Assembly: GCA_036675275.1 (NCBI GenBank) | Contig: JAKFFG010000027.1 | Coordinates: 4,113 to 68,112, forward strand | DNA from: Pseudomonas sp. | GTDB taxonomy: Bacteria; Pseudomonadota; Gammaproteobacteria; Burkholderiales; Burkholderiaceae_B | Direction of reading: 5' to 3' | Length of the DNA stretch: 64,000 nucleotides | Shown: positions 859 to 45,921 of the stretch, piece after piece | How positions within the stretch are numbered: the first letter of the stretch is position 1 | Layout of the letters: each line of letters opens with the position of its first letter | Made by a program: the position numbers and the translations under genes | The notes under the pieces: model-generated | Told to the model about the DNA's origin: nothing | The model's database searches: none | What the model saw: only the letters and a program-made list of their open reading frames with translations

Positions 859-3800
859 TTATTGGTGTCCAGCCGTCGATGTCAGGACCGGAGCCTCGTG
901 GTGAGCGGCGGAGCGCAGTTCACCTTTGCCGATCGAACGCAGGAGCACATAGAACACCGGCGTAAGAAAGAGGCCGAACAAGGTCACTCCCAACATGCCG
1001 AAGAACACAGCCACTCCCATCGCATGACGCATCTCCGCGCCCGCTCCTGAAGAGATCACAAGCGGGACTACCCCCATGATGAAAGCGATCGAGGTCATGA
1101 GGATGGGCCGCAGGCGCAGTCGGCTGGCTTCGATCGCGGCCTTCAACGGTGTCGCGCCCTGCAGTTCGAGCTCACGTGCAAATTCAACGATCAGGATGGC
1201 GTTCTTGCAAGCCAGTCCGACCAGAACCATCAGTCCGATCTGCGTGAAGATATTGTTGTCGCCCCCCGTCAGCCACACTCCCGTGAGCGCCGCAAGAATA
1301 CTCATGGGCACGATAAGAATGACCGCCAAAGGCAATGTCAGGCTTTCGTACAGAGCGGCCAATACCAGGAACACCAGCAGCACGCTGATGGGGAATATCC
1401 AGATACCGGCATTGCCAGCCAGGATTTGCTGATAGGTCAGGTCGGTCCATTCGAACTTGACCCCGCGCGGGAGCGTCTTATCCGCAATGCGTTCGGCCGC
1501 GGCCTGCGCCTGGTCCGACGAGTACCCCGGAGCCGGACCACTGTTGATGTCGGCCGCGGTATAGCCGTTATAGCGCACCACCATCTCGGGTCCGTAAGAA
1601 GGCGTCACCTTGACCAGCGAAGACAAAGGCACCATGTCGCCGTCGCGATTTCGGGTCTTCAACTGAAGTATGTCTTCGGGTTGCGAGCGGTATGGCGCGT
1701 CGGCTTGCGCCCTTACCTGGTATACCCGGCCAAATCGATTGAAGTCGTTCACATACAAGGAACCCAGGTAGATCTGCATGGTGTCGAAGACATCTGTCAC
1801 CGGCACGCCCAGTTGCTTTGCCTTCACCCTATCCAGGTCTACGTCGAGCTGCGGCACGTTGATCTGATAACTGGAAAATGCAGGGCCCAGTTCCGGCGTC
1901 TTGCGCGCCTCTGCCAGAAATGCCTGCACCGCCACGTCGAGCTGCGCATAACCGACAGCGGCCCGGTCTTCAATCTGCAGCTTGAACCCCCCTACTGTTC
2001 CCAAGCCCATGACCGGCGGTGGCGGAAAGACGGCTATGTAGGAATCATTGATGGAGAGGTACTTTTGATTGAGGGCGGCGGCGATACCATTGGCCGACAG
2101 GTCCGCATCATCGCGCTGGTCGAATGGCTTGAGCATCACAAACACAATCCCGGCACTAGAGCTGTTCGTAAAGCCATTGATGGACAATCCGGGAAAGGCA
2201 ATGGCGCTTTCAACGCCGGGCTGCTCCAATGCGATATCGGTCATGTCGCGAATCACTTGTTCGGTCCGGTCCAGGGACGCACCGTTGGGCAATTGGGCAA
2301 AGCTGATCAGATACTGTTTATCTTGCGCCGGGACGAAGCCGCCGGGAACAACATACGAAACGCCCACCGTCGCCGCCACCAATACCAGGTACACCGCCAT
2401 CGAAGACGCCTTGCGCGAAATGACGCCTGACACTCCCCTGGCATACTGATCCGACGATCGGGCAAAGAAACGATTGAACCGCGCAAAAAAACCGCCCAAT
2501 ACCCGGTTCATTGCGCGGGTCAGCCAGTCGGGCTTTTCAGTGTGGCCCTTCAATAACAATGCCGCCAGCGCCGGCGACAGCGTCAAGGAATTGAAAGCGG
2601 AAATCACAGTGGAAATCGCTATCGTCATGGCGAATTGCTTGAAGAACTGGCCGGTGAGCCCCGTCATGAACGCCAGCGGCACGAAGACGGCCACCAGCGT
2701 CAATGCGATGGCGATGATAGGTCCGCTGACTTCCCGCATGGCGCGATACGTGGCGTCTCGGGGGGACAAGCCTTCGGCGATATTGCGCTCGACGTTTTCC
2801 ACCACAACGATGGCATCGTCCACCACAATGCCGATCGCCAGCACCAATCCGAAAAGAGACAGCGCGTTGATGGTGTACCCAAAGGCCAGCATCAAGGCGA
2901 AGGTGCCAACGATGGAGACCGGTACGGCAAGCAAGGGAATGATCGAGGCCCGCCAGGTCTGCAAGAATATGATGACCACGAGCACGACCAAAGCGACGGC
3001 TTCCAGCAGTGTCACCACAACCGCCTTGATGCTGGAACGTACAAACTGAGTGGGATCATAGGCGATACGGCTCTCGACGGACGCCGGAAAATCCGCAGAC
3101 AGTTCGTCCATGACCGCGCGAACCTGGTCGGATACCGCGAGCGCGTTGGCGCCGGGCGCCTGCATGATGCCTATTCCCACCGCCGGCTCATTATCGAGCA
3201 GGGACCTCAAGCCATACTCCGAGGCGGCAAGCTCTATGCGCGCGACGTCGCCCAGCCGGGTCACACCCCCATCCCCGGAAGTCTTGAGCACGATATCGGC
3301 AAACTCGGCTTCGGTGTGCAGGCGACCTTGCGTATTGACCGAGAGTTGCAAGGGCACATCCGGCAGCCCAGGCGACGCACCGATCACTCCGGCGGCCACC
3401 TGTACGTTCTGCTCGCGTATGGCGGCGACCACATCCGTTGCCGTAAGCCCCCGTTGCGCCACCTTCTGGGGATTCAGCCACACACGCATGGAATAGTTTC
3501 CGCCACCCCACAGCTGCACCTCGCCTACTCCCTCAATGCGAGCCAATCTGTCCTTGACGTTGAGCACCGCATAGTTGCGCAGATAGGTCATGTCATAGCG
3601 ATCATCGGGAGAGACCAGATGCACCACCATGGTCAGCGTCGGCGAGCTCTTCACCGTCGTCACGCCCAATCGCTGCACGTCTTCGGGCAGCCGAGGCAAT
3701 GCCTGCGACACGCGGTTCTGCACCAACTGCTGTGCCTTGTCGGGATCCATGCCCAGATTGAAGTGAACGGTCACTGCCAGGTTGCCATCGCTGTTGGCCT

Positions 3801-4047
3801 GCGATTGCATATAAAGCATATCCTCGACGCCGTTGATGGACTCCTCCAGCGGAGCGGCGACGGTTTCTGCAATGACCTTGGGGTTTGCTCCCGGATACTG
3901 GGCGCGCACCACGACCGAAGGCGGCACAACTTCCGGATATTCGGAAATGGGGAGCTGGAACACAGCCAACGCTCCTGCGAGCAGGATCAGGACTGACAGC
4001 ACGCCGGCAAAGATGGGCCGGTCGATAAAGAACTTGGAAATGTTCAT
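859..4047 (-). CDS. Multidrug efflux RND permease (AcrB/MexB family, HAE1)
   Basis: 1062 aa ORF with N-terminus MNISKFFIDRPIFA. It has the AcrB-like 12-TM plus two large periplasmic loop layout, and sits between MFP and OMF genes. Confidence 0.95.
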   Translation of the reverse strand: MNISKFFIDRPIFAGVLSVLILLAGALAVFQLPISEYPEVVPPSVVVRAQYPGANPKVIAETVAAPLEESINGVEDMLYMQSQANSDGNLAVTVHFNLGMDPDKAQQLVQNRVSQALPRLPEDVQRLGVTTVKSSPTLTMVVHLVSPDDRYDMTYLRNYAVLNVKDRLARIEGVGEVQLWGGGNYSMRVWLNPQKVAQRGLTATDVVAAIREQNVQVAAGVIGASPGLPDVPLQLSVNTQGRLHTEAEFADIVLKTSGDGGVTRLGDVARIELAASEYGLRSLLDNEPAVGIGIMQAPGANALAVSDQVRAVMDELSADFPASVESRIAYDPTQFVRSSIKAVVVTLLEAVALVVLVVIIFLQTWRASIIPLLAVPVSIVGTFALMLAFGYTINALSLFGLVLAIGIVVDDAIVVVENVERNIAEGLSPRDATYRAMREVSGPIIAIALTLVAVFVPLAFMTGLTGQFFKQFAMTIAISTVISAFNSLTLSPALAALLLKGHTEKPDWLTRAMNRVLGGFFARFNRFFARSSDQYARGVSGVISRKASSMAVYLVLVAATVGVSYVVPGGFVPAQDKQYLISFAQLPNGASLDRTEQVIRDMTDIALEQPGVESAIAFPGLSINGFTNSSSAGIVFVMLKPFDQRDDADLSANGIAAALNQKYLSINDSYIAVFPPPPVMGLGTVGGFKLQIEDRAAVGYAQLDVAVQAFLAEARKTPELGPAFSSYQINVPQLDVDLDRVKAKQLGVPVTDVFDTMQIYLGSLYVNDFNRFGRVYQVRAQADAPYRSQPEDILQLKTRNRDGDMVPLSSLVKVTPSYGPEMVVRYNGYTAADINSGPAPGYSSDQAQAAAERIADKTLPRGVKFEWTDLTYQQILAGNAGIWIFPISVLLVFLVLAALYESLTLPLAVILIVPMSILAALTGVWLTGGDNNIFTQIGLMVLVGLACKNAILIVEFARELELQGATPLKAAIEASRLRLRPILMTSIAFIMGVVPLVISSGAGAEMRHAMGVAVFFGMLGVTLFGLFLTPVFYVLLRSIGKGELRSAAHHEAPVLTSTAGHQ

Positions 4048-4062
4048 GAGAGTTCTGTCGGT

Positions 4063-5295
4063 TCAGGAGTTATCAATAGATTCGGACGGATGTGCACCTG
4101 ATGCGGCGATTCTCGGAGGCTCGGTTGCCAATACCGGCCGAGGTGTGACCACATCGCCCGGCCGAATGCGTTGCAGGCCGCTGACAACGATGCGCTCTCC
4201 CGCTTTCAAGCCTGCTTCGACCACGCTCCAGCCCTTCCTGCTGGTTCCAAGATGAACCTCCCGATATTCAGTCTTGTTGCTCTCGCCCACAACCACGACG
4301 AAGCGCTTGTTCTGATCGGTGCCTATCGCCCTATCGTCGACCAGCACGGCCTCGTGCGGCGCGCCCCCGCCCAGCCGAATACGGGCGTAAAGACCCGGCA
4401 CCAAGGAACCATCAGGGTTATCGAAGACCGCGCGCACTCGTATGGTTCCCGATGATGTGTCCATCGTGTTGTCGACGGAGGCCAATGTTCCAGGACGAGG
4501 ATAGTTCTCCTCGTTGGCCAAACCCAGGTGTACGGGAACTGCGGCATCACCGGAGACGCGCGCCGGATTCACGAACTTCAGAAAGCTCTGCTCATCGACG
4601 TCGAACGAGGCATAAAGCCGGGACACCGAAACCAGGGTGGTCAAGGGCGTCGAGCCGGCGCCGGCCGCCACGACATTGCCCGGCGTCACTTCCGCGCGCG
4701 ACACCCGTCCTGAAATGGGAGCGACGATACGTGTGTGTTCGAGGTTCAATTGCGCCGATTCCAGCCTTGCCTTAGCCGCCTGCAGATCGGCAACGGCGCT
4801 GCGCGACGCATTGCGCTTCTCTTCATAGTCTCGCCGGGCAATGGCGTTGTTATCCAACAGCCGTTTCCCCCGGGCAAGATCCGACCCTGTATACGCGACC
4901 CGCGCTTGCGCTGAGACTACCTGGGCTTTGGCATGATCCACCGCCGCCCGGTACGGCCTGGGATCTATGGTGAACAGCACATCGCCCTTCTGAACCTGGC
5001 TTCCGTCCGTAAAATGAACCTGCGTCAACGTACCTGAGACCAAGGGACGGACAACGATCTCATCGACGGCCTCGAGCCGACCTGAAAAGTAATGCCAATC
5101 GGTAACGGTCTGACTATCGACCGTCGCAACGTCCACGGTAACCGCTGGCATAGCCGGAGCCGCCGTGGACTCCTGAGCCGATCCAGCATAAACGCGAAAA
5201 ACGGCGACACCCCCGATCAGAGCCGCGGCGGCAATGGCCAGCGCGGCGTATCGATTGCGTAGTAGAAACATGGTAGTCCTTGTGTTGCTGATCAT
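4063..5295 (-). CDS. RND efflux membrane fusion protein (AcrA/MexA, HlyD_D23 family)
   Basis: 410 aa with an N-terminal membrane anchor and coiled-coil/lipoyl/beta-barrel MFP-like sequence (e.g. VVRPLVSGTL, IVAPISGRVS). It lies immediately upstream of the RND permease. Confidence 0.9.
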   Translation of the reverse strand: MISNTRTTMFLLRNRYAALAIAAAALIGGVAVFRVYAGSAQESTAAPAMPAVTVDVATVDSQTVTDWHYFSGRLEAVDEIVVRPLVSGTLTQVHFTDGSQVQKGDVLFTIDPRPYRAAVDHAKAQVVSAQARVAYTGSDLARGKRLLDNNAIARRDYEEKRNASRSAVADLQAAKARLESAQLNLEHTRIVAPISGRVSRAEVTPGNVVAAGAGSTPLTTLVSVSRLYASFDVDEQSFLKFVNPARVSGDAAVPVHLGLANEENYPRPGTLASVDNTMDTSSGTIRVRAVFDNPDGSLVPGLYARIRLGGGAPHEAVLVDDRAIGTDQNKRFVVVVGESNKTEYREVHLGTSRKGWSVVEAGLKAGERIVVSGLQRIRPGDVVTPRPVLATEPPRIAASGAHPSESIDNS

Positions 5296-5505
5296 GCCGG
5301 AAGTTGAAAATGAGTCGTCGAATTCCTACATTTTTCAAGCCGGCATAGAAATTCTGGAAATGAGCGGGTATTATTTACTTTTCGCAGAGACAGATAAATA
5401 CGCGTTTTCTGCCTACACTATTCGTCAATTTCCAACAATGCAGCCCCGTGTTTGGGTCATGGACACTCACACTTGGCTGCGAACATCATTTCAAGGAAGA
5501 GCACG

Positions 5506-6522
5506 ATGGATCGCTTCCAGGCTATGCAGGTCTTCACACGGGTCGTGGACGCGAACAGCTTCACACTGGCCGCGGATATGCTCGGCCTGCCGCGGGCCAC
5601 CGTAACGACCACGATCCAGGGACTGGAACGCCTGCTGAAGGTGCGGTTGCTGAACCGCACCACCCGCCGGCTGAGCCTCACGCCCGATGGCGCGGCATAT
5701 TACGATCACTGTGTACGAATACTCGCCGACATAGAAGACGCGGAGGCGTCGTTTCACGACGTGACCCGAGGTCCGAAAGGCCGGCTGCGCATCGACACGC
5801 CGCCGTCCATCGGACGGCTGATACTGCTGCCCGCCTTATGCGAATTTCATGAGCGCTACCCCGACATTGAGCTGGCGATCGGAATGAGCGACAGGCCGGT
5901 CGACATGGTGCAGGAAGCCGTGGACTGCGTGATCAGGGTGGGCGAGCTGCAGGATTCAAGCATGGTCGCCAAACGGATAGGAACATTCGAAAGCATCACA
6001 TGCGCCGCGCCGTCATACCTGGAGCGCCACGGTGAACCGCAAACCATAGAAGAATTGAACGGCCACCGTGCCGTTCACTATTTTTCCGGGCGCAGCGGAA
6101 GAAATATGGACTGGAGCTTCACAGTGGATGGGCGAGTCACGGAAGTCGCCGTCCAGGGAGCCGTGTCGGTCAACGACGCGGAGGCTTATGTGACCTGCGG
6201 CTTGAAGGGATTTGGCATGATACAGCCGGCGCGATATATGGTTGCGGCCCACCTGGAATCGGGAGCGCTGCGGGAAATCCTGCCCGCATGGAAGCCTCAG
6301 CCCATGCCCATCTCGGTGGTCTACCTGCACAACCGTCATCTGTCGCCCAAGGTGCGGGTTTTCGTCGACTGGATAAGCGAACTGTTCCAACGCTGCCCCT
6401 TGCTGGGCGAGTGCGGGTTGGGCATGGCAAGCGCAGAAGAATGCCGGTTCGCAGGCCGGCATGCGTCCAATACCATACGGGAAATAATGGAACGCGAACA
6501 TGTGAAGGAAAGTATCTTCTGA
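5506..6522 (+). CDS. LysR-family transcriptional regulator, divergent from the efflux operon
   Basis: The ATG at 5506 is preceded by AAGGAAGAG. The N-terminus MDRFQAMQVFTRVVDANSFTLAADMLGLPRATVTTTIQGLE is a typical LysR wHTH, followed by a C-terminal substrate-binding domain. Confidence 0.9.
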   Translation: MDRFQAMQVFTRVVDANSFTLAADMLGLPRATVTTTIQGLERLLKVRLLNRTTRRLSLTPDGAAYYDHCVRILADIEDAEASFHDVTRGPKGRLRIDTPPSIGRLILLPALCEFHERYPDIELAIGMSDRPVDMVQEAVDCVIRVGELQDSSMVAKRIGTFESITCAAPSYLERHGEPQTIEELNGHRAVHYFSGRSGRNMDWSFTVDGRVTEVAVQGAVSVNDAEAYVTCGLKGFGMIQPARYMVAAHLESGALREILPAWKPQPMPISVVYLHNRHLSPKVRVFVDWISELFQRCPLLGECGLGMASAEECRFAGRHASNTIREIMEREHVKESIF

Positions 6523-6582: not shown

Positions 6583-7989
6583 ATGAACGTAGCGATCATC
6601 GGCACCGGCTATGTCGGCCTGGTTACCGGCGCATGCCTTGCCGAAGCAGGAAACAACGTCACTTGCATTGACAATAACGACGAGAAAATAGCCGGACTTC
6701 GCGCGGGCACCGTGCCGTTTCACGAACCCTTGCTCGACGCGGTCGTACTTCAGGCAAGCATGAAAGGAACGCTACAGTTCACAAGCAGATTGGCCGAAGG
6801 CACACTCCATGCCGAAATTATCTTCCTGGCGCTGGGGACTCCCGCCGGCATCGACGGTTATGCAAATACTGGGGCCTTGCTGCAATGCGCGCAGGATCTT
6901 GCAGCAGTCTTGCAGCACGATTGCCTTGTCGTCATCAAATCAACAGTCCCGCCTGGAACTTGTGAAGACATCCAGGCGCTTTTCGACACAACGCTCGTGC
7001 GCCGAACAGCGGACTTCCGGATCAAAGTCGCCTCCAATCCCGAATTTTTAGCCGAGGGTACCGCTGTAAGCGATTTCCGCAGGCCCGCGCGAATCGTGGT
7101 CGGCGCGTCGGACGAAGCTGACTCCGGGATACTCAGGCAACTCTATGCACCCTTCGATCCGGATGGCACCCGTCTGATTGAAATGGATCTTCGATCTGCG
7201 GAGTTCGCCAAGTATGCATGCAACGCGATGCTGGCGGCGCGAATTTCCATGATAAACGAACTGGCCAATATCGCAGGCCGTCTGGGCGCAGATATCGGAC
7301 CAGTATGCCAGGTGCTGAAGTCGGATCCGAGGATAGGGCCCCGTTATCTGGAACCTGGCGCCGGCTACGGTGGATCCTGCCTGCCGAAAGATTTGCATGC
7401 CCTCATTCGCATGGCCCGGGACAAGGGCGAACCCGCTCCCATGCTCACTAGTATTGATCAGGTGAATCGGCGCCAGGTAAAGCTCATCTTCAAAGCGATA
7501 GAGAAATACTTCTGGGGACGCTTCAAGGGCCGATGTGTTGCCATCTGGGGGCTCGCCTTCAAAGCGGGAACCGACGACATTCGGGAAGCGCCCAGTCTTG
7601 CGCTGATTCAAGGGCTTCTTGACGCCGGCGCCAAAGTGCGGGCCTACGATCCCATCGCCGAATCGGCCGTCGCGTCAACGTTCAAGCACCCCGACCTGGT
7701 CCTTGCAGCCAGCGCCGAACAAGCCTGCCTGGATGCCGACGTGCTCGTTGTGATGACGGAATGGGAAGAGTTCATCACGCCCGATTTCAAATGGCTGGCA
7801 TCCACGTTGCGCTCACCTGCCATTTTCGATGCGCGCAACCTTTACAACGATAAAGACTTGAAGTCTCTGGGTTTACGCCACTACCGGCCCGGACGGACAT
7901 TCCCCGCACAGACGACACCCAGGACTCTGTGGACACAAGCACCGCTGCGGAGGGACGATGCCGCGCCGGTCCGGCAACAGCATGGGTGA
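6583..7989 (+). CDS. ugd: UDP-glucose 6-dehydrogenase
   Basis: 468 aa with the Rossmann motif IIGTGYVGL and catalytic Cys context GGSCLPKD. It has the UDPG/GDP-mannose dehydrogenase family layout. Confidence 0.9.
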   Translation: MNVAIIGTGYVGLVTGACLAEAGNNVTCIDNNDEKIAGLRAGTVPFHEPLLDAVVLQASMKGTLQFTSRLAEGTLHAEIIFLALGTPAGIDGYANTGALLQCAQDLAAVLQHDCLVVIKSTVPPGTCEDIQALFDTTLVRRTADFRIKVASNPEFLAEGTAVSDFRRPARIVVGASDEADSGILRQLYAPFDPDGTRLIEMDLRSAEFAKYACNAMLAARISMINELANIAGRLGADIGPVCQVLKSDPRIGPRYLEPGAGYGGSCLPKDLHALIRMARDKGEPAPMLTSIDQVNRRQVKLIFKAIEKYFWGRFKGRCVAIWGLAFKAGTDDIREAPSLALIQGLLDAGAKVRAYDPIAESAVASTFKHPDLVLAASAEQACLDADVLVVMTEWEEFITPDFKWLASTLRSPAIFDARNLYNDKDLKSLGLRHYRPGRTFPAQTTPRTLWTQAPLRRDDAAPVRQQHG

Positions 7990-8071
7990 CAAAACCGCAG
8001 AATAGAAAGCATCGCCTGTTCGACAACGATATTGCAAAAGCCGGCGGGCCATATTGAAGGAGCCGGCGACA

Positions 8072-10822
8072 TCAGCGTACTGGCTTATCCGTAGACGCCC
8101 CGATGCGCGTCACTGCCAGGATAGTGGCCAGAAGTTCTCTCGGGTCCACCGGCTTGCCCACATGAACCTGGAATCCGGCCAGCAATGCGCGCAAGCGGTC
8201 TTCCCTTTCACTGTAGCCGGACAGCGCAATGGCGGGCAGGCGTTCCGCCAACGATAAACCGCGTTGCGCCTCGAGTTTGCGGATATCGGTAATTACCTGA
8301 TATCCGTCCGGTTCGCCCAGCGATATATCGCATACGAGTACATCCGGCCATTGGGGCCGCGCGCTTTCGTGCAATCGCGATAAGAGTGACCCTCCGGAGT
8401 CGAATACTTCCACTTGCGCGCCGTGGTCCTGAAGAACGGCGGCCAGCAATTCCCTGGCTTCTTGCTGGTCGTCCGCAACGAAAATGCGAACGCTTTGCAG
8501 GACGTGGTCCAGCTCTTGCGCAACCGGCGTCGCCGGCGCCAGCGATGCGACAGCCCGTAGCGGCAGCCGGATGGAGAATGTCATTCCGGAACCGTCGCTT
8601 GCAGGCCTCACGTCGAAGCTGCCGCCCATCTGCTCCAGCATCGCGGTCACCGCCAACGGATCCAGCAAATGCGACAATCTCACCGGCTGCGATTCGTCCA
8701 CAGCGGCCGGAGCAGTATCCGACGAAGTCAGGCGTCCGTCGGTCACTGAAATGAGCGCCGCCCCTTCCGAGCGTTCCAGCCGCAACTCAAGGCGTCCGCC
8801 GGACGGCGTGAAAGCGATCGCGTTATCCAGCACATCGCATACGAGTTGCTGCAATGCGCTGGGATCACCCGTGACACGCAGGGTGTCCGTGCTGATCAGC
8901 GGATACAGCACTATTCCCTGGGACTCGCTGGCCGGACGCATCGCATCCAGCACACCGGCCACCAGAGCCACGAGATTCACCGGTTGAGCGCTCAGCCGGG
9001 ATCCGGATTCATCCAGTTCGTTTTGCTGCCGTTGCAAATGCCACATCTGGGCATACAAGCCTTTGGCACGCAGCAGATCCGCGTGCGAACCACGCTCGAC
9101 AATGCAGCCGTGATCCATGACCAGTATCGTGTCGGCATTCACTATCGTGGACAGTCTATGGGCGATGATCAATGTGCTTCTGCCCTGCGCAAGACGGTCG
9201 AGTTCCTCCTGAATAGCACGCTCTGTGCGGGTATCCAGCGCCGACGTTGCCTCGTCGAAGATAAGCAGGGGCGGATTCTTCAGTACCGCGCGGGCAATGG
9301 CAATGCGCTGCCGTTCGCCCCCGGAGAGCTTCACCCCGCGTTCGCCCACCATGGTTTCATATTGGGCCGGCAAGCTCTGGATCAATTCGTGAATCCGGGC
9401 GGCCTTGGCCGCCTCAATAACATCGGCGGGCGTGGCGCCAACCCGGCCATAGGCGATGTTGTATGCAATCGTATTGTTGAACAGCAGAGAGTCCTGCGGC
9501 ACCACCCCTATCATGGACCGCAGGCTTTTCTGGCTGACCGAGCGTACGTCCTGGCCATCCACTTCGATACTCCCGCCATCAACGTCATAAAAATGCAGCA
9601 GCAGGCGAGCCAGCGTGGACTTGCCCGAACCGCTACCCCCCACCACTGCAACGGTCGCCCCCGGCTCGATGCGGAAATCCACCCCGTGCAGTATCTGGCG
9701 TCCCGGCTCGTAGGAGAAGTCGACCTTGGCAAACTCGACGGCGCCACCGCTGAAGCGCAATGCAGGCAGAACTTCCGCAGGATCGGATTCAGGCGGATAA
9801 CGCAAAAGCTCGGACATCCGTTCGGCGTTGATCAGCGCCTCGCGCGCCTGCCGAAAGCTGAGACCCAGTGTATTCAGCGGCAGGCAGACCTGTATTACAT
9901 AGGCGTTGACCAGTATAAGATCGCCGACCGCCATGTTTCCGCTGACCACTTCCTGGCCGGCCAACAACATTATCGCGGCAACGCCAAACGCAATGATCCC
10001 GCTTTGCCCCACGTGCAGAACCGACAGGGCTCGCTGGTTATCCACCCCTATGCCTATCCATTTCTTCATGATGTCGCGCAAGCGTTGCGACTCGACTTGG
10101 TCGCTGGCATAGAACTTCACCGTTTCATAATTGAGCAGACTATCGACCAGATGGCCATTGGCCGCGGAGTCCAGTTCATTCAGCTGCCGCTGGTACAGCG
10201 TACGCCTTTCAGTGAAGACGACGGTGAATATCGCATAGATGACAAAAGTGGCCAGCACGATGGCCGCGAATCCGAAGTGGTAAGCCATCATCATAATGAC
10301 CACGACGGAGACGATCTCGATCAGGGTGGGCAATACCGTAAACAGTGCAGTACCCAATAAGAAGCCGATGCCGGCTGTGCCCCTTTCCACATCGCGCGAT
10401 AGAACGCCTGTCTGCCGGCCGCCAAGGAACTTCACGCCCAGGCTATGCAGATGATCGAACATGCGCACGGTAAAGTCCGCAACTGCCGTTTGGGTAACGC
10501 GGGCAAAGACCAGGTCGCGCAGTTCCGTGAACAAGCCGGACGAGAAGCGCAGCAAGGCATAGCCTATCAGGAGAAAAACCGGCAACGTCAGTGTTGCGGA
10601 GCTTGAATCCAATGTATCTACGATGCGCTTGAGGGCGACCGGCACCAGGACCGCCAACAGCTTTGCCGCAATGAGCAAGACCAGGGCCGCAGCCGCGCGG
10701 CGCCTGAATCGCCATAAAACCTGGCCTACGGTCTTGAAAATTTCACGGCGCGCAAACACCGATGTCCCCGCATCACCGGTTCCGGAGCGAGTCGAATGCG
10801 GATCGCTGGCCGAGCCTTCCAT
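8072..10822 (-). CDS. ATM1/HMT1-type ABC exporter (TMD+NBD) fused to a HATPase_c-like domain and a CheY-like receiver domain
   Basis: Single uninterrupted ORF. Transporter motifs are Walker A GGSGSGKST, signature LSGGERQR, Walker B LLIFDEATSALD and IIAHRLS. It continues into an N-box-like LVCDVLDNAIAFTPSGG ...GMTFSIRLPL, then a receiver (VADDQQ, VLVCDISLGEPDG, ALSGY, HVGKP). The ATG at 10822 with GAGGA 5 nt upstream is preferred over the TTG at 10834. Confidence 0.85.
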   Translation of the reverse strand: MEGSASDPHSTRSGTGDAGTSVFARREIFKTVGQVLWRFRRRAAAALVLLIAAKLLAVLVPVALKRIVDTLDSSSATLTLPVFLLIGYALLRFSSGLFTELRDLVFARVTQTAVADFTVRMFDHLHSLGVKFLGGRQTGVLSRDVERGTAGIGFLLGTALFTVLPTLIEIVSVVVIMMMAYHFGFAAIVLATFVIYAIFTVVFTERRTLYQRQLNELDSAANGHLVDSLLNYETVKFYASDQVESQRLRDIMKKWIGIGVDNQRALSVLHVGQSGIIAFGVAAIMLLAGQEVVSGNMAVGDLILVNAYVIQVCLPLNTLGLSFRQAREALINAERMSELLRYPPESDPAEVLPALRFSGGAVEFAKVDFSYEPGRQILHGVDFRIEPGATVAVVGGSGSGKSTLARLLLHFYDVDGGSIEVDGQDVRSVSQKSLRSMIGVVPQDSLLFNNTIAYNIAYGRVGATPADVIEAAKAARIHELIQSLPAQYETMVGERGVKLSGGERQRIAIARAVLKNPPLLIFDEATSALDTRTERAIQEELDRLAQGRSTLIIAHRLSTIVNADTILVMDHGCIVERGSHADLLRAKGLYAQMWHLQRQQNELDESGSRLSAQPVNLVALVAGVLDAMRPASESQGIVLYPLISTDTLRVTGDPSALQQLVCDVLDNAIAFTPSGGRLELRLERSEGAALISVTDGRLTSSDTAPAAVDESQPVRLSHLLDPLAVTAMLEQMGGSFDVRPASDGSGMTFSIRLPLRAVASLAPATPVAQELDHVLQSVRIFVADDQQEARELLAAVLQDHGAQVEVFDSGGSLLSRLHESARPQWPDVLVCDISLGEPDGYQVITDIRKLEAQRGLSLAERLPAIALSGYSEREDRLRALLAGFQVHVGKPVDPRELLATILAVTRIGASTDKPVR

Positions 10823-10840
10823 AATAGTCCTCAAGCAATT

Positions 10841-11740
10841 TTATGGCGGAGTCATATCGGCGCCATTCTCTGATTCCTTTTCAGCCGAGACGCGCGAGCC
10901 GTATCGGCGCGCATACGCCCAGGTGAATTCAGCACCCAGGAGAAACACCTGGGCGGCGTAGTACACCCAGATCAATACCATTACCAAGGAGCCCGCCGCC
11001 GTGAGCGAGGAGATCGTGGAGCTCTTGCCGACGTAAAGCGCGATGAGAGCCTTGCCCACCTCAAACAGAACAGCAGTCACGAAGGCGCCCACCCATACAT
11101 CGCGCCAGTCTATCTTCGCCTGCGGCATGAACTTATAGATCATCGCGAACAGTACGGTGGCAATCCCCAGCGAAACGACAGCATTGATGACCTGTAGCAA
11201 AAGCTCCCATCCCGGGAACAAGCCGGTGGACCACTGGCCCAATGCCGCCAGGGCGGCGCTCAGGATCAAGGACACGAGCAACAGGAACGCCAGACCCAGA
11301 ACGAGGCCGAAGGAAAGCAGGCGGGCGCGCAACGTCGCCAATATGCCGGTCTTTGCCGTCGCCGGTACCCTCCATATACGATCCAGGGCACTTTGCAACT
11401 CTGCAAATACCGTGGTCGAACCGACAACCAATACGATTACGCTGAAGAGCGTAGCGGTAACGCCCTGCGCGGGTTTGTCGGCGCTCTTGATCAGATTCTG
11501 CACTCCCGATGCACTTTCGGTGCCGACCATGCCTCCAATCTGACGTATGATTTCTCCACGCACCGCCTCTTCGCCCCACACAAAGCCGGCGACAGCGATA
11601 ACGATGATCAGGAGGGGTGCGATGGAAAAAGTCGTGTAGAAAGCAATGGCTGCACCCATGCTGGAAGCGCGGTCATCCTGCCAGGCCGCCACCGACTCTT
11701 TGCCCAATTGAAAAAATTCCTTTACACGCATCCCGGGCAT
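10841..11740 (-). CDS. YihY/BrkB (virulence factor BrkB / former RNase BN) family inner-membrane protein
   Basis: 299 aa. The sequence WQDDRASSMGAAIAFYTTFSIAPLLI plus about 6 TM segments is characteristic of YihY. Its stop lies 18 nt before the ABC fusion start. Confidence 0.85.
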   Translation of the reverse strand: MPGMRVKEFFQLGKESVAAWQDDRASSMGAAIAFYTTFSIAPLLIIVIAVAGFVWGEEAVRGEIIRQIGGMVGTESASGVQNLIKSADKPAQGVTATLFSVIVLVVGSTTVFAELQSALDRIWRVPATAKTGILATLRARLLSFGLVLGLAFLLLVSLILSAALAALGQWSTGLFPGWELLLQVINAVVSLGIATVLFAMIYKFMPQAKIDWRDVWVGAFVTAVLFEVGKALIALYVGKSSTISSLTAAGSLVMVLIWVYYAAQVFLLGAEFTWAYARRYGSRVSAEKESENGADMTPP

Positions 11741-11755
11741 CCTTTCAACGCGCCA

Positions 11756-12265
11756 TCACGACTTATCCAGATCGGGCGCGTCCCGTTGTGCCAAAGCGCG
11801 CCCCTTGGCGACGGCCTTAAGGCAATGGGCAATGGTTGCGGCAAACGCTTCGTCATACCAGGGGTTGGCACCGCTGACGCCGACCACAATCCCCTCAATG
11901 GCCACGCCGCCCCAGATCCCGCAGTCGCCTGCCTGCAATAGATGAGGCAGCACATGGCGCACAGTATGCCCGTCACGGCCGGTGCGCCAGCATACCTTCG
12001 CCTTGTCACGCGCGAAGCGGGCATAGTCGGCGTCCCATTTGTCCTGATCGCCGATGGCATGTTCATAAAGAATTGCGTCGTCGAACTCGCTGACCGAAGG
12101 ATCCAGACCCGGATCCATGATGACGATGTAAAGAAAACCGCTCTCCCCGACAGTTGCGTTATGTACACCCTGCTCGAGCATCGGAAGAGCCAGATTGACG
12201 GCCTGCCTGGCCGCATCCTGATCTGCAAAGTAACTGCCCGAAGCCCGCTGTCGCCCTGAATTCAT
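11756..12265 (-). CDS. GlcG/HbpS-like (DUF336) putative heme/cofactor-binding protein
   Basis: The ATG at 12265 is preceded by GGGAGG. The C-terminal GGVAIEGIVVGVSGANPWYDEAFAATIA resembles the GlcG motif GG.P....G.IGAVGVSG. No signal peptide is seen. Its stop lies 15 nt before yihY. Confidence 0.55.
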   Translation of the reverse strand: MNSGRQRASGSYFADQDAARQAVNLALPMLEQGVHNATVGESGFLYIVIMDPGLDPSVSEFDDAILYEHAIGDQDKWDADYARFARDKAKVCWRTGRDGHTVRHVLPHLLQAGDCGIWGGVAIEGIVVGVSGANPWYDEAFAATIAHCLKAVAKGRALAQRDAPDLDKS

Positions 12266-44072: not shown

Positions 44073-44107
44073 GACAATATAGTACCGTTTCGGTACTATA
44101 TTGTCAA
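44073..44107 (-). promoter_or_regulatory. Near-consensus sigma70 promoter overlapped by a perfect 15-3-15 palindrome (candidate Rrf2 operator) upstream of rrf2-suf
   Basis: The minus strand reads TTGACA-aatatagtaccgaaacgg-TACTAT (17-nt spacer). The palindrome GACAATATAGTACCG-TTT-CGGTACTATATTGTC at 44073-44105 spans from -35 to -10. The -35 overlaps the stop codon of the upstream ABC gene. Confidence 0.6.
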
Positions 44108-45921
44108 ACTGCGGAATCTTGCTCTGCCTGGCTTGGCCGGTCCGGATCCTGGCCACTTTGCTGCAAGTTCCACATCTGGGCATACCGACCGGCCTGGGCA
44201 ATCAAATCCCGGTGGGAACCGCGCTCAAGAACCCTTCCGTGATCCAGAACAATGATTTCGTCCGCCTCCACGATCGTGGAAAGGCGATGAGCGATGATCA
44301 GCGTGGTGCGGTCCTTGGCCACCTGGCGCAGCTCGTCCTGAATCACCCTTTCGGTGCGTGTGTCGAGCGCGCTGGTCGCCTCGTCCAGTATCAGGATGGG
44401 CGGATTCTTCAGGACCGTGCGCGCGATGGCAACGCGCTGCTTTTCACCACCCGACAATTTCAGGCCCCGTTCACCGACTTGAGTCTGATAGGCGTCCGGC
44501 AGGTTCATGACAAAGTCGTGAATGCTCGCGGCCTTGGCTGCCTGGACAATTTCCTGCTCTGACGCGTCCGGATTTCCATACGCGATGTTGTACAGGATGC
44601 TGTCGTTGAACAGGACGGTATCTTGCGGAACGATTCCGATATGCCGCCGCAGGCTGGCCTGGGTCAGGTCTCGAATGTCGACGCCATTAATCGTGATCGA
44701 GCCGGAATTGACATCGTAGAAACGGAACAGCAATCTGGACAGGGTCGATTTCCCGGCACCGGAAGATCCCACTACGGCCAATGTCTTGCCCGCGGGTATC
44801 GAGAAGCTCACATCAAACAGAATCTGGCGGTTTGATTCATAGCCGAATTCCACATTATTGAAGCGGATTGCCGCCTGCGATGTACACAATTCCGTGGCAG
44901 CCGGACGGTCGGCCACTTCCTGGCCCTGCTCCATCAGGCCGAACATGCGCTCCATATCAGCCAGCGCATGCTTTATCTCGCGATATACAAAGCCCAGGAA
45001 ATTGAGCGGCGCATACAACTGCGTGAGATAGGCCGAAACCAGTACGACATCGCCTACCGACATAGTCTTGCTCACCACTCCCTGCGCCGATAGCCAAAGC
45101 AGCAAGGTAACGCCGGTCGTAATGATGACGCCCTGCCCCATGTTCAGGAAGTTGAGCGACACCTGGTTCTTGACGGCCGAATCCACCCATTTCCCCAGAT
45201 TGCTGTCGTAGCGATCCAGCTCGTAACCCTCGTTGCCGAAGTATTTCACCGTCTCGTAATTGATCAGGGCATCGATGGCTTTGCTGTTGGCCTTGCTGTC
45301 CAGGTCGTTCATGCTGCGGCGATAGACCATCCGCTTCTCGGTCACCACCAGGGTAAACGCAATATACGCGGCGATCGTGCCTAGGGTCACGACAGCAAAG
45401 CGCCAATCGTAGCGCCACAGCAAAATGGCAGTCACCATGCCGATTTCCAGCAGGGTCGGCAAGATATTGAACACCATGAAATTGAGCAGAAAACCTATGC
45501 CCTTGGTGCCGCGTTCGATATCCCTGCTCAAGCCTCCCGTCTGCCGCTGCATATGAAAGCGCAGCGACAAGGCAAACAGATGTTTGAACAATTGGGCCGC
45601 AATACGGCGTATGGACCCTTGCGTGACACGCGCAAACAGCGCATCGCGCAGCTCTCCGAAGACGCTGGACGCCAGGCGCGCAAAGCCATACCCCAGCAAC
45701 GCGGCCACCGGAAGCACGAGCAAAGTGCCCGGCAAGCTGAGTTTGTCGACGATGTCTTTCAAGAACAGAGGCAGGATTACGCTGGCGACCTTGGCAGCCA
45801 CCAGACAGGCCAAGGCCGCAGCCACGCGCCGCTTGAACTGCCATACATAAGGCAGCAGCGACCTTATCGTCTTTATATCGTCCCGCCCCCCGGGCGCAGA
45901 TCCACGGTGACTCATTTTCAT
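44104..45921 (-). CDS. ATM1/HMT1-type ABC exporter (fused TMD-NBD half transporter)
   Basis: About 605 aa with Walker A GSSGAGKST, LSGGEKQRVAIAR, ILILDEATSALD and IIAHRLS. It is a paralog of residues ~36-600 of the fusion at 8072-10822. Its start ATG at 45921 forms an ATGA overlap with the upstream acyltransferase stop. Confidence 0.9.
   Translation of the reverse strand: MKMSHRGSAPGGRDDIKTIRSLLPYVWQFKRRVAAALACLVAAKVASVILPLFLKDIVDKLSLPGTLLVLPVAALLGYGFARLASSVFGELRDALFARVTQGSIRRIAAQLFKHLFALSLRFHMQRQTGGLSRDIERGTKGIGFLLNFMVFNILPTLLEIGMVTAILLWRYDWRFAVVTLGTIAAYIAFTLVVTEKRMVYRRSMNDLDSKANSKAIDALINYETVKYFGNEGYELDRYDSNLGKWVDSAVKNQVSLNFLNMGQGVIITTGVTLLLWLSAQGVVSKTMSVGDVVLVSAYLTQLYAPLNFLGFVYREIKHALADMERMFGLMEQGQEVADRPAATELCTSQAAIRFNNVEFGYESNRQILFDVSFSIPAGKTLAVVGSSGAGKSTLSRLLFRFYDVNSGSITINGVDIRDLTQASLRRHIGIVPQDTVLFNDSILYNIAYGNPDASEQEIVQAAKAASIHDFVMNLPDAYQTQVGERGLKLSGGEKQRVAIARTVLKNPPILILDEATSALDTRTERVIQDELRQVAKDRTTLIIAHRLSTIVEADEIIVLDHGRVLERGSHRDLIAQAGRYAQMWNLQQSGQDPDRPSQAEQDSAV

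What the first reader, a model, noticed from the sequence alone, without database searches (positions are those of the whole stretch)
8072..10822. ATM1/HMT1-type ABC exporter fused in one ORF to a histidine-kinase-like ATPase domain and a receiver domain
There is one uninterrupted ORF of about 916 codons. Residues ~36-600 form a complete half-transporter: a six-TM region, Walker A GGSGSGKST, signature LSGGERQR, Walker B LLIFDEATSALD and IIAHRLS. This part is clearly paralogous to the stand-alone exporter at 44104-45921, which ends shortly after the equivalent ...YAQMWNLQQ. Here the frame instead continues into a GHKL/HATPase_c-like module (nt ~8555-8992; LVCDVLDNAIAFTPSGG ... GMTFSIRLPL). It then continues into a CheY-like receiver (nt ~8120-8491). 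I do not know of a characterised ABC exporter carrying its own two-component signalling module. It could be a phosphorylation-gated exporter or a transport-coupled sensor (transceptor).
Basis: partly seen in the sequence, partly recalled or inferred. Interest (0 to 1): 0.85.

Follow-up and report, generated by a model that had tools for sequence, protein, structure and literature searches.

The report
ABC exporter with receiver-domain tail
One real gene encodes an Atm1-like ABC export pump fused to a dead histidine-kinase ATPase domain and an intact phospho-receiver domain; the fusion is conserved in many betaproteobacteria and unstudied, and it suggests that a two-component signal switches a transporter directly.

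Summary
Window 8072-10822 (- strand) is one uninterrupted 916-codon gene. Pfam finds ABC_membrane, ABC_tran, HATPase_c and Response_reg, all above their curated cut-offs.

The fusion is not an assembly artefact. The same in-frame fusion occurs in 72 of the 80 best species-level loci (Alcaligenaceae, Ralstonia, Usitatibacter, Rhodocyclales). Every database name I saw is generic, and I found no paper on it.

The interpretation needs three corrections:
- There is no HisKA/DHp domain and no phospho-accepting histidine.
- The kinase-like domain keeps its fold but has lost the N, G1, F and G2 ATP-binding motifs. It is a pseudokinase remnant of a hybrid histidine kinase, not a self-contained two-component module.
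- The receiver is intact: Asp832, Lys890 and Ser/Thr868 are present in 73/73 sequences. It must be phosphorylated in trans.

The pump is a diverged Atm1 paralogue. It keeps 6 of the 8 conserved glutathione-pocket residues, and the two changes are fixed across the family. In most genera it sits inside a conserved glycoconjugate-biosynthesis locus, beside a small uncharacterised protein. Herbaspirillum has an unfused orthologue in the same locus.

Best reading (inferred, not shown): receiver phosphorylation gates export of that locus's product.

The parts
8072..10822 (-). Whole gene: 916 codons plus stop. It encodes ABC exporter, pseudo-CA domain and receiver in one frame.
   Evidence: ORF list. 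Start context. Pfam. The exact protein is on three other assemblies.
10828..10832 (-). GAGGA ribosome-binding site, 5 nt upstream of ATG 10822. The alternative TTG start at 10834 overlaps it.
   Evidence: Sequence read directly. Inference only.
9887..10687 (-). Transmembrane domain, six TM helices, aa ~46-312. TM6 motif is PLNTLGLSFR (aa 315-324).
   Evidence: Pfam ABC_membrane at 118.6 bits. AF2 helices. Pocket mapping.
9059..9745 (-). Nucleotide-binding domain, aa ~360-588. It has intact Walker A, Q-loop, signature, Walker B and H-loop.
   Evidence: Pfam ABC_tran at 116.1 bits. Motif positions. AF2 pLDDT about 90-97.
8987..9058 (-). C-terminal NBD helix (aa 589-606, ...YAQMWxLQRQQ...) plus a short disordered linker (607-612). 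This is the junction to the signalling tail.
   Evidence: AF2 secondary structure and pLDDT. Alignments to the unfused paralogue and orthologue end here. Column conservation.
8555..8986 (-). Degenerate histidine-kinase CA (HATPase_c-like) domain, aa 613-756. The fold is kept. G1 is reduced, the F and G2 motifs are lost, and the N-box Asn is variable across the family. The 'lid' (about 695-721) is disordered.
   Evidence: Pfam HATPase_c at 33.2 bits. Alignment to canonical hybrid HKs. Column counts. AF2. Foldseek hits to ShkA, CusS, DivL and RetS.
8489..8554 (-). Poorly conserved, disordered linker between the CA-like domain and the receiver (aa 757-778).
   Evidence: Mean conservation 0.38. 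pLDDT below 50 at 757-769.
8111..8488 (-). CheY-like receiver domain, aa 779-904. Its phospho-acceptor site is complete: D784, D785, D832, S868, K890.
   Evidence: Pfam Response_reg at 64.6 bits. D832, K890 and S/T868 are present in 73/73 species-level sequences. AF2 pLDDT about 90.
8327..8329 (-).
   Evidence: Invariant in 102/102 and 73/73 sequences. It aligns with the phospho-Asp of PhoB.
8010..8028 (-). Terminator-like hairpin downstream of the stop codon, between this gene and the convergent UDP-glucose dehydrogenase gene.
   Evidence: Consensus scan only. Weak evidence.
10841..11740 (-). Upstream YihY/BrkB-family membrane protein gene. Its stop lies 18 nt before ATG 10822, so it is probably in the same operon. 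This neighbour is specific to the Pollutimonas/Pusillimonas subclade.
   Evidence: Pfam Virul_fac_BrkB at 165.6 bits. Gene order. Found in 6 of 54 loci.
11756..12265 (-). Small (169 aa) uncharacterised protein. It is the most widely conserved neighbour of the fused gene.
   Evidence: 51% identical to the Bordetella neighbour. Found in 45 of 54 full-flank loci, always on the same strand and, outside this subclade, directly adjacent. No family hit apart from a faint HbpS-like match.
6583..7989 (+). Convergent UDP-glucose 6-dehydrogenase gene. It looks like a remnant of the sugar-metabolism locus that surrounds the fused gene in other genera.
   Evidence: Pfam families. Same arrangement in Candidimonas and Pollutimonas sp. 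M17. Found in 15 of 54 loci.

Best explanation
The gene encodes a homodimeric ABCB-type half-transporter from an Atm1-derived subfamily. In an ancestor within Burkholderiales/Rhodocyclales, its C-terminal NBD helix became fused to the CA-REC end of a hybrid histidine kinase.

The CA domain has since decayed into a nucleotide-blind scaffold (a pseudokinase). The receiver has kept a fully competent phospho-acceptor pocket.

Most likely the transporter is the output of a two-component pathway:
- A trans-acting histidine kinase, Hpt protein or small phosphodonor phosphorylates Asp832.
- The resulting change in the two tails hanging under the NBD dimer either releases or imposes a restraint on NBD closure. 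The change could be receiver dimerisation, or docking and undocking of the pseudo-CA/REC unit.
- ATP-driven export is thereby switched on or off post-translationally.

The cargo is probably the product, or an intermediate, of the glycosyltransferase/carbamoyltransferase locus in which the gene is embedded in most genera. That locus also carries stress-type genes. Classical Atm1 metal-glutathione cargo is less likely.

Shown: the architecture, the dead CA, the intact REC, the conservation, the synteny, and the unfused orthologue.
Inferred: that the receiver is phosphorylated, the direction of control, and the cargo.
For: Architecture and reality of the fusion:
- One ORF with four Pfam domains above their cut-offs.
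- The same in-frame fusion in 72 of the 80 best species-level loci across at least 16 genera.
- More than 120 clusters at 90% identity are full-length fusions.

Origin of the tail:
- Its nearest non-ABC relatives are REC-HisKA-CA-REC hybrid kinases, at 33-40% identity.
- The best structural match is the full-length hybrid kinase ShkA.

Dead kinase:
- No HisKA and no conserved His.
- The N-box Asn is kept in 22 of 73 sequences. G1 is truncated. F and G2 are absent.
- The lid is disordered, and in Ralstonia it tolerates a 45-aa insertion.
- Even so, several CA residues are invariant or nearly so: D626, R629, R649, D653-P654, A668, R677, D721. This indicates selection for a structural role.

Live receiver:
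- D832, K890 and S/T868 are present in 73/73 sequences. D784/D785 are present in 70-71 of 73.

The exporter came first and the tail was added:
- Herbaspirillum has the same glycan locus and the same small protein, but an unfused 598-aa ABC protein. It is 60% identical to the fused ABC part and shares the subfamily signature Q211/H270.
- The closest unfused representative, P0248, also sits next to GT1, GT9 and radical-SAM genes.

Link to cargo:
- In 54 loci with full 10-kb flanks, genes for SDR, a GmhB-like HAD phosphatase, two GT9s, a NodU-like carbamoyltransferase, GT4, GT2 and GT1 are present in 39-47 loci (gene identities).

Intact ATPase motifs show that the pump itself is functional.

The tail is attached to the C-terminal helix. 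In Atm1 proteins this helix is reported to contact the partner NBD (PMC6424863, citing Srinivasan 2014).
Against: - There is no experimental evidence of phosphorylation or of any effect on transport.
- No cognate kinase or Hpt gene is conserved nearby. Other hybrid kinases lie within 10 kb in only 4 of 54 loci, and none is in the 64-kb window.
- AF2 gives no confident placement of the tail relative to the NBD (pTM 0.61 for the full length and 0.53 for the tail). A dimer could not be modelled.
- In the window's own subclade (Pollutimonas/Pusillimonas) the glycan locus is not adjacent. The cargo inference is therefore indirect for this particular gene.
- Receivers derived from hybrid kinases normally pass phosphate on to an Hpt protein, so a relay or sink role is also plausible.
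Confidence: 0.5

Rival explanations
1. Transport-coupled sensor or phosphate sink. The receiver belongs to a phosphorelay, as in its hybrid-kinase ancestor. The conformational cycle or substrate load of the pump controls whether the receiver can accept phosphate from, or donate it to, an Hpt or kinase. The pump would then report flux to gene regulation, as in BceAB-type flux sensing or transceptors.
For: The tail descends from hybrid kinases, whose C-terminal receivers are relay intermediates. The receiver is fully competent. Transporter-kinase fusions used for sensing exist, for example the SLC5-STAC kinases CbrA/CrbS (abstracts of PMC9100948 and PMC5715377).
Against: No Hpt gene or response-regulator gene is conserved next to the fused gene. 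The ABC part has a functional-looking unfused orthologue in the same biosynthetic locus, so export is the ancestral job. The kinase half needed to originate a signal has been lost.
Confidence: 0.2
2. Phosphorylation-independent regulatory or scaffolding tail. The pseudo-CA/REC unit acts through protein-protein contacts, for example with the conserved small neighbour protein or with glycosyltransferases of the locus. Alternatively it binds a small ligand. The Asp pocket would be conserved for Mg2+ or structural reasons.
For: Pseudokinase CA domains that act by binding partners are known: RetS and DivL appear among the structural matches. The small protein is adjacent and co-directional in 45 of 54 loci. 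Invariant residues persist in a catalytically dead CA.
Against: All five receiver active-site positions (two acidic residues, phospho-Asp, Ser/Thr, Lys) are kept in essentially every one of 73 species. This is the usual signature of receivers that are really phosphorylated. Pseudo-receivers generally lose some of these positions.
Confidence: 0.2
3. The fusion is an assembly or annotation artefact, or a decaying vestigial tail with no function.
For: A few database entries have frameshifted, Arg-rich nonsense tails (P0246 and P0254). In 2 of the 74 loci with an ABC exporter directly upstream, the ABC and tail matches were not joined in one uninterrupted frame.
Against: The same uninterrupted frame is found in 72 species and in three independent assemblies of the same protein. 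The receiver and many CA residues are under clear purifying selection.
Confidence: 0.02

Closest known systems
Atm1 / ABCB7 / AtAtm3 / NaAtm1 (glutathione-derivative and heavy-metal ABC exporters)
   Same: These are the best solved-structure matches: 485 bits to AtAtm3 (7n58) and 479 bits to NaAtm1 (4mrn), over aa 17-611. The half-transporter layout is the same. The fused protein is 51% identical to the window's own Atm1 paralogue. Six of the eight conserved pocket residues and most of the TM6 motif are retained.
   Different: R328 is replaced by Gln and N387 by His (AtAtm3 numbering), and both changes are fixed across the fused family. Scores to ABCB1 and ABCB4 are just as high. The genomic context is glycan biosynthesis, not metal or Fe-S genes. 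No Atm1 protein has a C-terminal CA-REC extension; every PDB match ends at about residue 610.
Hybrid histidine kinases (for example ShkA, 6QRJ) and pseudokinases RetS and DivL
   Same: The tail is homologous (33-40% identity) to the CA-REC end of REC-HisKA-CA-REC kinases. Foldseek's top hit is ShkA (E 8.5e-16), followed by kinase catalytic cores that include RetS and DivL.
   Different: There is no DHp/HisKA domain and no phospho-His. The ATP-binding motifs are lost. The CA domain is attached to an ABC nucleotide-binding domain instead of a four-helix bundle.
Phosphorylation-regulated ABC exporters: CFTR (R domain, PKA) and M. tuberculosis Rv1747 (FHA domains, Ser/Thr kinases)
   Same: The concept matches: an ABC exporter carrying a built-in module that reads a phosphorylation signal and is thought to gate NBD function. 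This comparison rests on my own knowledge and was not tested here.
   Different: The chemistry differs (His-Asp phosphorelay receiver versus Ser/Thr phosphorylation), the regulatory domains are unrelated, and the position differs (C-terminal to the NBD).
Transporter-two-component couplings: SLC5-STAC kinases CbrA/CrbS, and BceAB-BceS flux sensing
   Same: A transporter is physically joined to, or complexed with, two-component parts (abstracts of PMC9100948 and PMC5715377).
   Different: In those systems the transporter part feeds a complete, active kinase. Here the kinase is dead and only the receiver survives, so information most plausibly flows towards the transporter.
C-terminal regulatory domains of ABC importer ATPases (MalK, MetN, ModC)
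   Same: Extra domains follow the NBD and control NBD closure. This is from my own knowledge and serves as a mechanistic analogy only.
   Different: Those are importers with ligand-binding regulatory domains of unrelated folds, and no phosphorylation is involved.

Membership tests
ABC exporter, ABCB-type half-transporter | A six-helix ABC_membrane domain followed by an ABC_tran NBD with Walker A, signature, Walker B and H-loop | tested here: met
   Pfam 118.6 and 116.1 bits. Motifs at aa 395, 499, 519 and 552. PDB matches over aa 17-611.
Atm1/ABCB7/HMT1 subfamily | Closest sequence similarity is to structurally characterised Atm1 proteins rather than to other ABCB proteins | tested here: inconclusive
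   The top hit is AtAtm3 (485 bits) and NaAtm1 scores 479. ABCB4 (482) and ABCB1 (473) score the same. The window's stand-alone paralogue scores 609 and 556 to the same Atm1 proteins.
Atm1/ABCB7/HMT1 subfamily | The conserved glutathione-pocket residues T317, R324, R328, N387, Q390, L433, G437, R441 (AtAtm3 numbering; PMC9000953) and the TM6 motif PLNFLGSVYR | tested here: not met
   Six of eight are kept: T200, R207, Q273, L316, G320, R324. R328 is Gln211 in 101/102 sequences and N387 is His270 in 97/102. TM6 reads PLNTLGLSFR. The paralogue at 44104-46062 keeps 8 of 8.
MsbA (lipid A flippase) | Score above the NCBIfam equivalog cut-off | tested here: not met
   TIGR02203 scores 393 bits against a cut-off of 602. 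No ABC family in the top 25 listed reaches its cut-off.
Histidine kinase (HisKA + HATPase_c) | A DHp/HisKA dimerisation domain with a phospho-accepting His (H-box) | tested here: not met
   No HisKA hit. In the alignment with canonical relatives, the SHELRTPLN H-box region is absent. Only about 15 residues separate the NBD helix from the CA start. No conserved His is found in the junction columns.
Histidine kinase (HisKA + HATPase_c) | GHKL/Bergerat fold of the CA domain | tested here: met
   Pfam HATPase_c at 33.2 bits against a cut-off of 26.4. The AF2 alpha/beta sandwich has pLDDT 81-96. Foldseek hits kinase catalytic cores at E 1e-10 to 1e-16. Pfam detects the domain in only about 28 of 120 family clusters.
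Histidine kinase (HisKA + HATPase_c) | ATP-binding motifs N, G1 (DxGxG), F and G2 (GxGLGL) | tested here: not met
   The N-box Asn is kept in 46/102 and 22/73 sequences, with His the commonest replacement. G1 is 'DGR' with a one-residue deletion. F and G2 are missing. The lid is disordered and variable in length. Actual nucleotide binding is not testable here.
Response-regulator receiver (CheY-like) | (beta/alpha)5 fold with the acidic pair, phospho-acceptor Asp, Ser/Thr and Lys | tested here: met
   Pfam 64.6 bits. D784/D785, D832, S868 and K890 are present, and D832, K890 and S/T868 are kept in 73/73 sequences. AF2 pLDDT is about 90-98. PhoB and KdpE receiver structures match at E about 1e-12 to 1e-8.
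Response-regulator receiver (CheY-like) | Actual phosphorylation of the Asp, and a cognate donor | not testable with these tools
   No kinase or Hpt gene lies in the window. None is conserved in the neighbourhoods.

The most novel reading that the evidence does not exclude
This is the first example of a His-Asp phosphorelay acting directly on a membrane pump. Phosphorylation of a built-in receiver, transmitted through a fossil kinase domain used as a lever, opens or closes the NBD dimer of an ABC exporter. Export of a stress-induced, carbamoylated heptose-type glycoconjugate is thereby switched within seconds and without transcription. The system is present in the Bordetella, Achromobacter and Ralstonia genera. 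The conserved small HbpS/GAF-like neighbour may act as a ligand-sensing partner.
Probability: 0.3. Interest if true: 0.85.

Novelty: new variant of a known kind. Interest (0 to 1): 0.62.

Why it matters
Two-component receivers are known to control DNA binding, enzymes, c-di-GMP turnover and motors. I found no description of one built into a transporter.

If Asp phosphorylation gates this pump, it would be a bacterial counterpart of CFTR-style phospho-gating that uses different chemistry. It would also be a compact model for how a domain attached to the C-terminal NBD helix controls the ABC cycle.

The family occurs in species of Bordetella (including B. bronchiseptica), Achromobacter (including A. 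xylosoxidans) and Ralstonia. It is tied to an uncharacterised, widely conserved glycoconjugate locus with envelope- and osmotic-stress genes, so it also flags an unstudied surface or stress pathway.

The finding is directly testable with D832 mutants, tail deletions and ATPase assays with BeF3-.

Tried and rejected
- **Artefact at the junction.** Rejected. The frame is identical in three assemblies and in 72 species.
- **Complete hybrid kinase fused to the pump.** Rejected. There is no HisKA domain or His, and the ATP motifs are lost.
- **Cognate kinase, Hpt or response regulator in the window.** tblastn with hybrid-kinase and Hpt queries found only the fusion itself. Across related loci, extra hybrid kinases occur in 4 of 54. 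These are a lead, not a conserved partner.
- **Glycan locus in the window.** tblastn with 21 gene products from the Bordetella locus (the glycan cluster and its neighbours) found only the small protein. The Pollutimonas subclade lacks the adjacent cluster.
- **Naming the glycan locus.** No NCBIfam equivalog threshold was reached. The GT4 is MshA-like at 283 bits against a cut-off of 462. The HAD phosphatase is GmhB-like. The GT9s are heptosyltransferase-like. The carbamoyltransferase is NodU-like. I considered a link to mycothiol/bacillithiol-type chemistry (MshA-like GT4 plus a PIG-L deacetylase) but have no evidence for it.
- **Identifying the small neighbour protein.** Pfam, NCBIfam, a PDB profile search and a 5.8-billion-protein search gave only 'hypothetical protein', plus a sub-threshold HbpS-like hit.
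- **Literature.** Four searches for an ABC exporter with a receiver or kinase domain, or for the Bordetella locus, found nothing relevant. The Azospirillum two-component survey mentions ABC transporters only as neighbours.
- **Structure.** The AF2 monomer gave good domains but no confident inter-domain geometry. A dimer could not be modelled with the tools available.
- **Technical note.** The first homology search, using the tail alone, returned only proteins under 600 aa. Full-length relatives appeared only when the whole protein was used as the query.


Full report
**1. Observation**

Window 8072-10834 on the minus strand is a single open reading frame of 920 codons from a TTG. An ATG at 10822 is preceded by GAGGA with a 5-nt spacer. 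It gives the 916-residue protein that gene callers report on three independent public assemblies. I use this 916-aa numbering throughout.

Pfam places four domains above their curated cut-offs:
- ABC_membrane, 118.6 bits.
- ABC_tran, 116.1 bits.
- HATPase_c, 33.2 bits against 26.4.
- Response_reg, 64.6 bits against 30.2.

The ABC part is 51% identical to the stand-alone exporter at 44104-46062. The description and the coordinates are therefore correct.

**2. The fusion is real and conserved**

A search with the whole protein returned more than 120 clusters (at 90% identity) of about 900-residue proteins. All had ABC_membrane, ABC_tran and Response_reg, at 55-97% identity. They come from Pollutimonas, Parapusillimonas, Candidimonas, Bordetella (including B. 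bronchiseptica and B. petrii), Achromobacter (including A. xylosoxidans), Pigmentiphaga, Orrella and Azoarcus.

I then scanned one genome per GTDB species with a profile of the tail alone. This found 237 relatives. Of the best 80:
- 74 have an ABC exporter directly upstream.
- 72 of those are in one uninterrupted frame.
- The other six are ordinary hybrid kinases from Solimonas, Acidobacteria and a cyanobacterium.

The scan added Pusillimonas, Castellaniella, Usitatibacter, Methylibium, Rhizobacter, Ralstonia (in one case on a megaplasmid), Aromatoleum and Uliginosibacterium. The window itself is closest to a MAG labelled Orrella sp. LC057 (98% in the ABC part, 95% in the tail) and to Pollutimonas subterranea.

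In sequence space the family is compact. Among 1.84 billion representatives at 50% identity, only P0243, P0244 and P0245 (plus one fragment, P0247) match across all four domains. Two further entries, P0246 and P0254, have frameshifted nonsense tails.

Every name attached to these proteins is generic, such as 'ATP-binding cassette domain-containing protein'. Four full-text literature searches found no description of the architecture.

**3. Anatomy of the tail**

The tail's nearest non-ABC relatives are hybrid kinases with the layout REC-HisKA-CA-REC, at 33-40% identity. Aligned to them, the fused protein differs as follows:
- It lacks the whole DHp/HisKA region, including the SHELRTPLN H-box.
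- The conserved NBD C-terminal helix (…YAQMWxLQRQQ…) is followed by about 15 variable residues and then by QPVNLV, which is the first strand of the CA domain.
- No His is conserved in the junction.

Within the CA domain, the ATP-binding motifs have decayed:
- The N-box Asn, which binds Mg-ATP in real kinases, is Asn in only 46/102 cluster-level and 22/73 species-level sequences. His is the main alternative.
- G1 is reduced to 'D-G-R' with a one-residue deletion.
- The F box and the G2 box (GLGLGL) are gone.

AlphaFold2 models were built from family alignments. The full-length model has mean pLDDT 82 and the tail-only model 88. Both keep the alpha/beta sandwich at pLDDT 81-96 but leave the 'lid' (about 695-721) disordered. 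In Ralstonia this segment carries a 45-residue insertion.

Foldseek matches the tail best to full-length ShkA. The next hits are kinase catalytic cores, including the pseudokinases RetS and DivL.

Several positions in this dead domain are nevertheless invariant or nearly so: D626, R629, R649, D653-P654, A668, R677 and D721. The domain is therefore maintained for something other than catalysis.

The receiver, in contrast, is canonical:
- D832, K890 and S/T868 are present in 73/73 species-level sequences.
- D784 and D785 are present in 70-71 of 73.
- pLDDT is about 90-98.

The module is thus a kinase-dead CA plus a live receiver. It cannot phosphorylate itself.

**4. The pump**

The best solved-structure matches are AtAtm3 (485 bits), NaAtm1 (479) and ABCB7 (476). 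ABCB4 and ABCB1 score about the same. No PDB entry extends beyond about residue 610.

The stand-alone paralogue in the window scores much higher to the Atm1 proteins, at 609 and 556 bits.

Fan and Rees list eight conserved pocket residues and the TM6 motif PLNFLGSVYR (PMC9000953). I mapped these through the HMMER alignment. The fused family keeps T200, R207, Q273, L316, G320 and R324. It has Gln211 in place of R328 (101/102 sequences) and His270 in place of N387 (97/102). Its TM6 motif reads PLNTLGLSFR. The paralogue keeps all eight.

The fused pump is therefore an Atm1-derived subfamily with a consistently altered pocket. It does not reach any NCBIfam equivalog cut-off; MsbA, for example, scores 393 against a cut-off of 602.

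**5. Context**

In Bordetella, Achromobacter, Azoarcus, Candidimonas, Pigmentiphaga and Parapusillimonas the gene lies next to two groups of genes.

The first is a conserved sugar-biosynthesis cluster:
- an MshA-like GT4
- an SDR
- a GmhB-like HAD phosphatase
- two heptosyltransferase-like GT9s
- a NodU-like carbamoyltransferase
- GT2 and GT1
- often a PIG-L deacetylase, UDP-glucose dehydrogenase and an epimerase

The second is a set of stress-type genes: BON, PRC barrel, MscS, DUF883, DUF421, DUF892 and hemerythrin. None of the biosynthetic proteins reaches an equivalog threshold.

I quantified this over the 54 fused loci with full 10-kb flanks. The eight core genes are present in 39-47 loci.

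A small protein of 150-190 residues is present in 45 of 54 loci. It is always on the same strand and lies immediately upstream or downstream of the fused gene. It has no Pfam, NCBIfam or PDB match beyond a sub-threshold HbpS-like signal.

The window belongs to the one subclade (Pollutimonas/Pusillimonas) that lacks the adjacent cluster. Only three related genes remain near the fused gene here:
- the small protein, at 11756-12265
- a YihY/BrkB gene, at 10841-11740, whose stop is 18 nt before the start of the fused gene
- the convergent UDP-glucose dehydrogenase, at 6583-7989

Herbaspirillum sp. ST 5-3 has the same locus and the same small protein, but with an unfused 598-residue ABC exporter. 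That exporter is 60% identical to the fused ABC part and shares the Gln211/His270 signature. The closest unfused representative, P0248 (58% identical), also sits beside GT1, GT9 and radical-SAM genes. The exporter was therefore an original member of the locus, and the CA-REC tail was added later in one lineage.

**6. Mechanism**

The following points are shown:
- a functional-looking pump
- a dead kinase domain under structural selection
- a live receiver
- attachment of the tail at the C-terminal NBD helix
- ancestry of the tail from hybrid kinases
- embedding in a glycan locus
- an unfused orthologue in that locus

From these I infer that the receiver is phosphorylated in trans and that this controls NBD dimerisation, and hence export of a product of the locus. 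The attachment point fits this reading. In Atm1 proteins the C-terminal helices are reported to reach the partner NBD (PMC6424863, citing Srinivasan 2014).

I give this reading about 0.5. The rivals are:
- a flux-sensing or phosphate-sink role in a relay (0.2)
- a phosphorylation-independent scaffold or ligand-binding role, possibly involving the small neighbour protein (0.2)
- an artefact or vestige (0.02)

No partner kinase can be named. None is in the window. Hybrid kinases lie within 10 kb in only 4 of 54 related loci.

**7. Novelty and score**

Each part belongs to a well-known family, and the proteins are already in the databases. However, I found no description of an ABC exporter with a built-in two-component receiver. 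The dead-kinase linker, the consistent pocket change and the conserved glycan/stress locus give it a specific and testable biology in medically and agriculturally relevant genera.

I class it as a new variant of a known kind, with interest 0.62. The 'own two-component module' claim fails, because the protein is not a kinase. And the mechanism is inferred rather than shown.

Noticed in passing
window 11756-12265 (-); e.g. L004:8050-8502, L006:9391-9870, L093:10001-10498: A family of small (150-190 aa) proteins, all annotated 'hypothetical', with about 978 clusters. It has invariant motifs (W-D-x-D-Y, G-x-x-V-x-x-S-G). It is co-directional with the ABC-CA-REC gene in all 53 of the 74 fused loci that have it (45 of the 54 loci with full flanks). 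It lies immediately next to that gene except in the Pollutimonas subclade, which includes the window. It is also present beside the unfused exporter in Herbaspirillum. The only similarity found is a sub-threshold HbpS-like/GlcG (PF03928) signal, at E 0.03-0.14 in 4 of 16 members.
   Followed up: partly
L004:12898-22564; L006:12815-22068; L009:14549-22766; L010:13457-22108; L012:13378-22716; L007:1-9777: An uncharacterised gene cluster that is conserved across Burkholderiales and Rhodocyclales. It encodes an MshA-like GT4, an SDR, a GmhB-like HAD phosphatase, two GT9s, a NodU-like carbamoyltransferase, GT2 and GT1. PIG-L deacetylase, UDP-glucose dehydrogenase and an epimerase are sometimes present. 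Stress-type genes flank it (BON, PRC barrel, MscS, DUF883, DUF421, DUF892, hemerythrin). No protein in the cluster reaches an NCBIfam equivalog cut-off, so the product is unknown.
   Followed up: partly
L093:4826-6622 (Herbaspirillum sp. ST 5-3); L094:10001-11857: Unfused orthologues of the exporter (598 and 618 aa; 60% and 58% identical) lie in the same kind of glycan locus. Here the locus also has a radical-SAM/SPASM gene. This shows the CA-REC tail was a later addition.
   Followed up: yes
window 44104-46062 (-) and 45918-47900 (-): The stand-alone exporter is a bona fide Atm1 orthologue: 8 of 8 glutathione-pocket residues, and 609 bits to AtAtm3. Its likely ATG at 45921 overlaps the stop of an upstream AT3-SGNH acyltransferase gene, which suggests translational coupling.
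   Followed up: partly
L069, L073, L075-L079 (Ralstonia spp.; L073 is plasmid p25C): Ralstonia members carry an insertion of about 45 residues in the former ATP-lid region of the CA-like domain, after residue 708. They also have a longer CA-REC linker. In at least one strain the gene is on a 2-Mb megaplasmid.
   Followed up: partly
L048:1613-6238(-), L050:40-4164(+), L066:12462-15176(+), L082:3037-5997(+): In four of the related loci a large hybrid histidine kinase lies within 10 kb of the fused gene. These are CheB/CheR-PAS-HisKA-CA-REC or TM-PAS-HisKA-CA-REC proteins, of the same subfamily as the tail's nearest relatives. They are possible phosphodonor candidates, but they are not conserved across the family.
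   Followed up: partly
L004:1750-5928 (Bordetella bronchiseptica): An RpoN (sigma-54) gene and two sigma-54 activators, one with a receiver domain, lie a few kb upstream of the fused gene in B. bronchiseptica.
   Followed up: no
P0246, P0254 (public protein collection): Two database representatives of the family have Arg-rich nonsense C-termini, typical of frameshifted high-GC reading frames. The first scores 752 bits to the query. Such entries could mislead architecture counts.
   Followed up: yes
window 859-6522: A LysR regulator gene (5452-6522, +) is transcribed divergently from the membrane-fusion protein and pump genes of an RND efflux system (4063-5295 and 859-4047, both -). These follow the UDP-glucose dehydrogenase gene. 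Pollutimonas sp. M17 has the same gene order, plus an outer-membrane factor gene, in the position where other genera have the glycan cluster.
   Followed up: no
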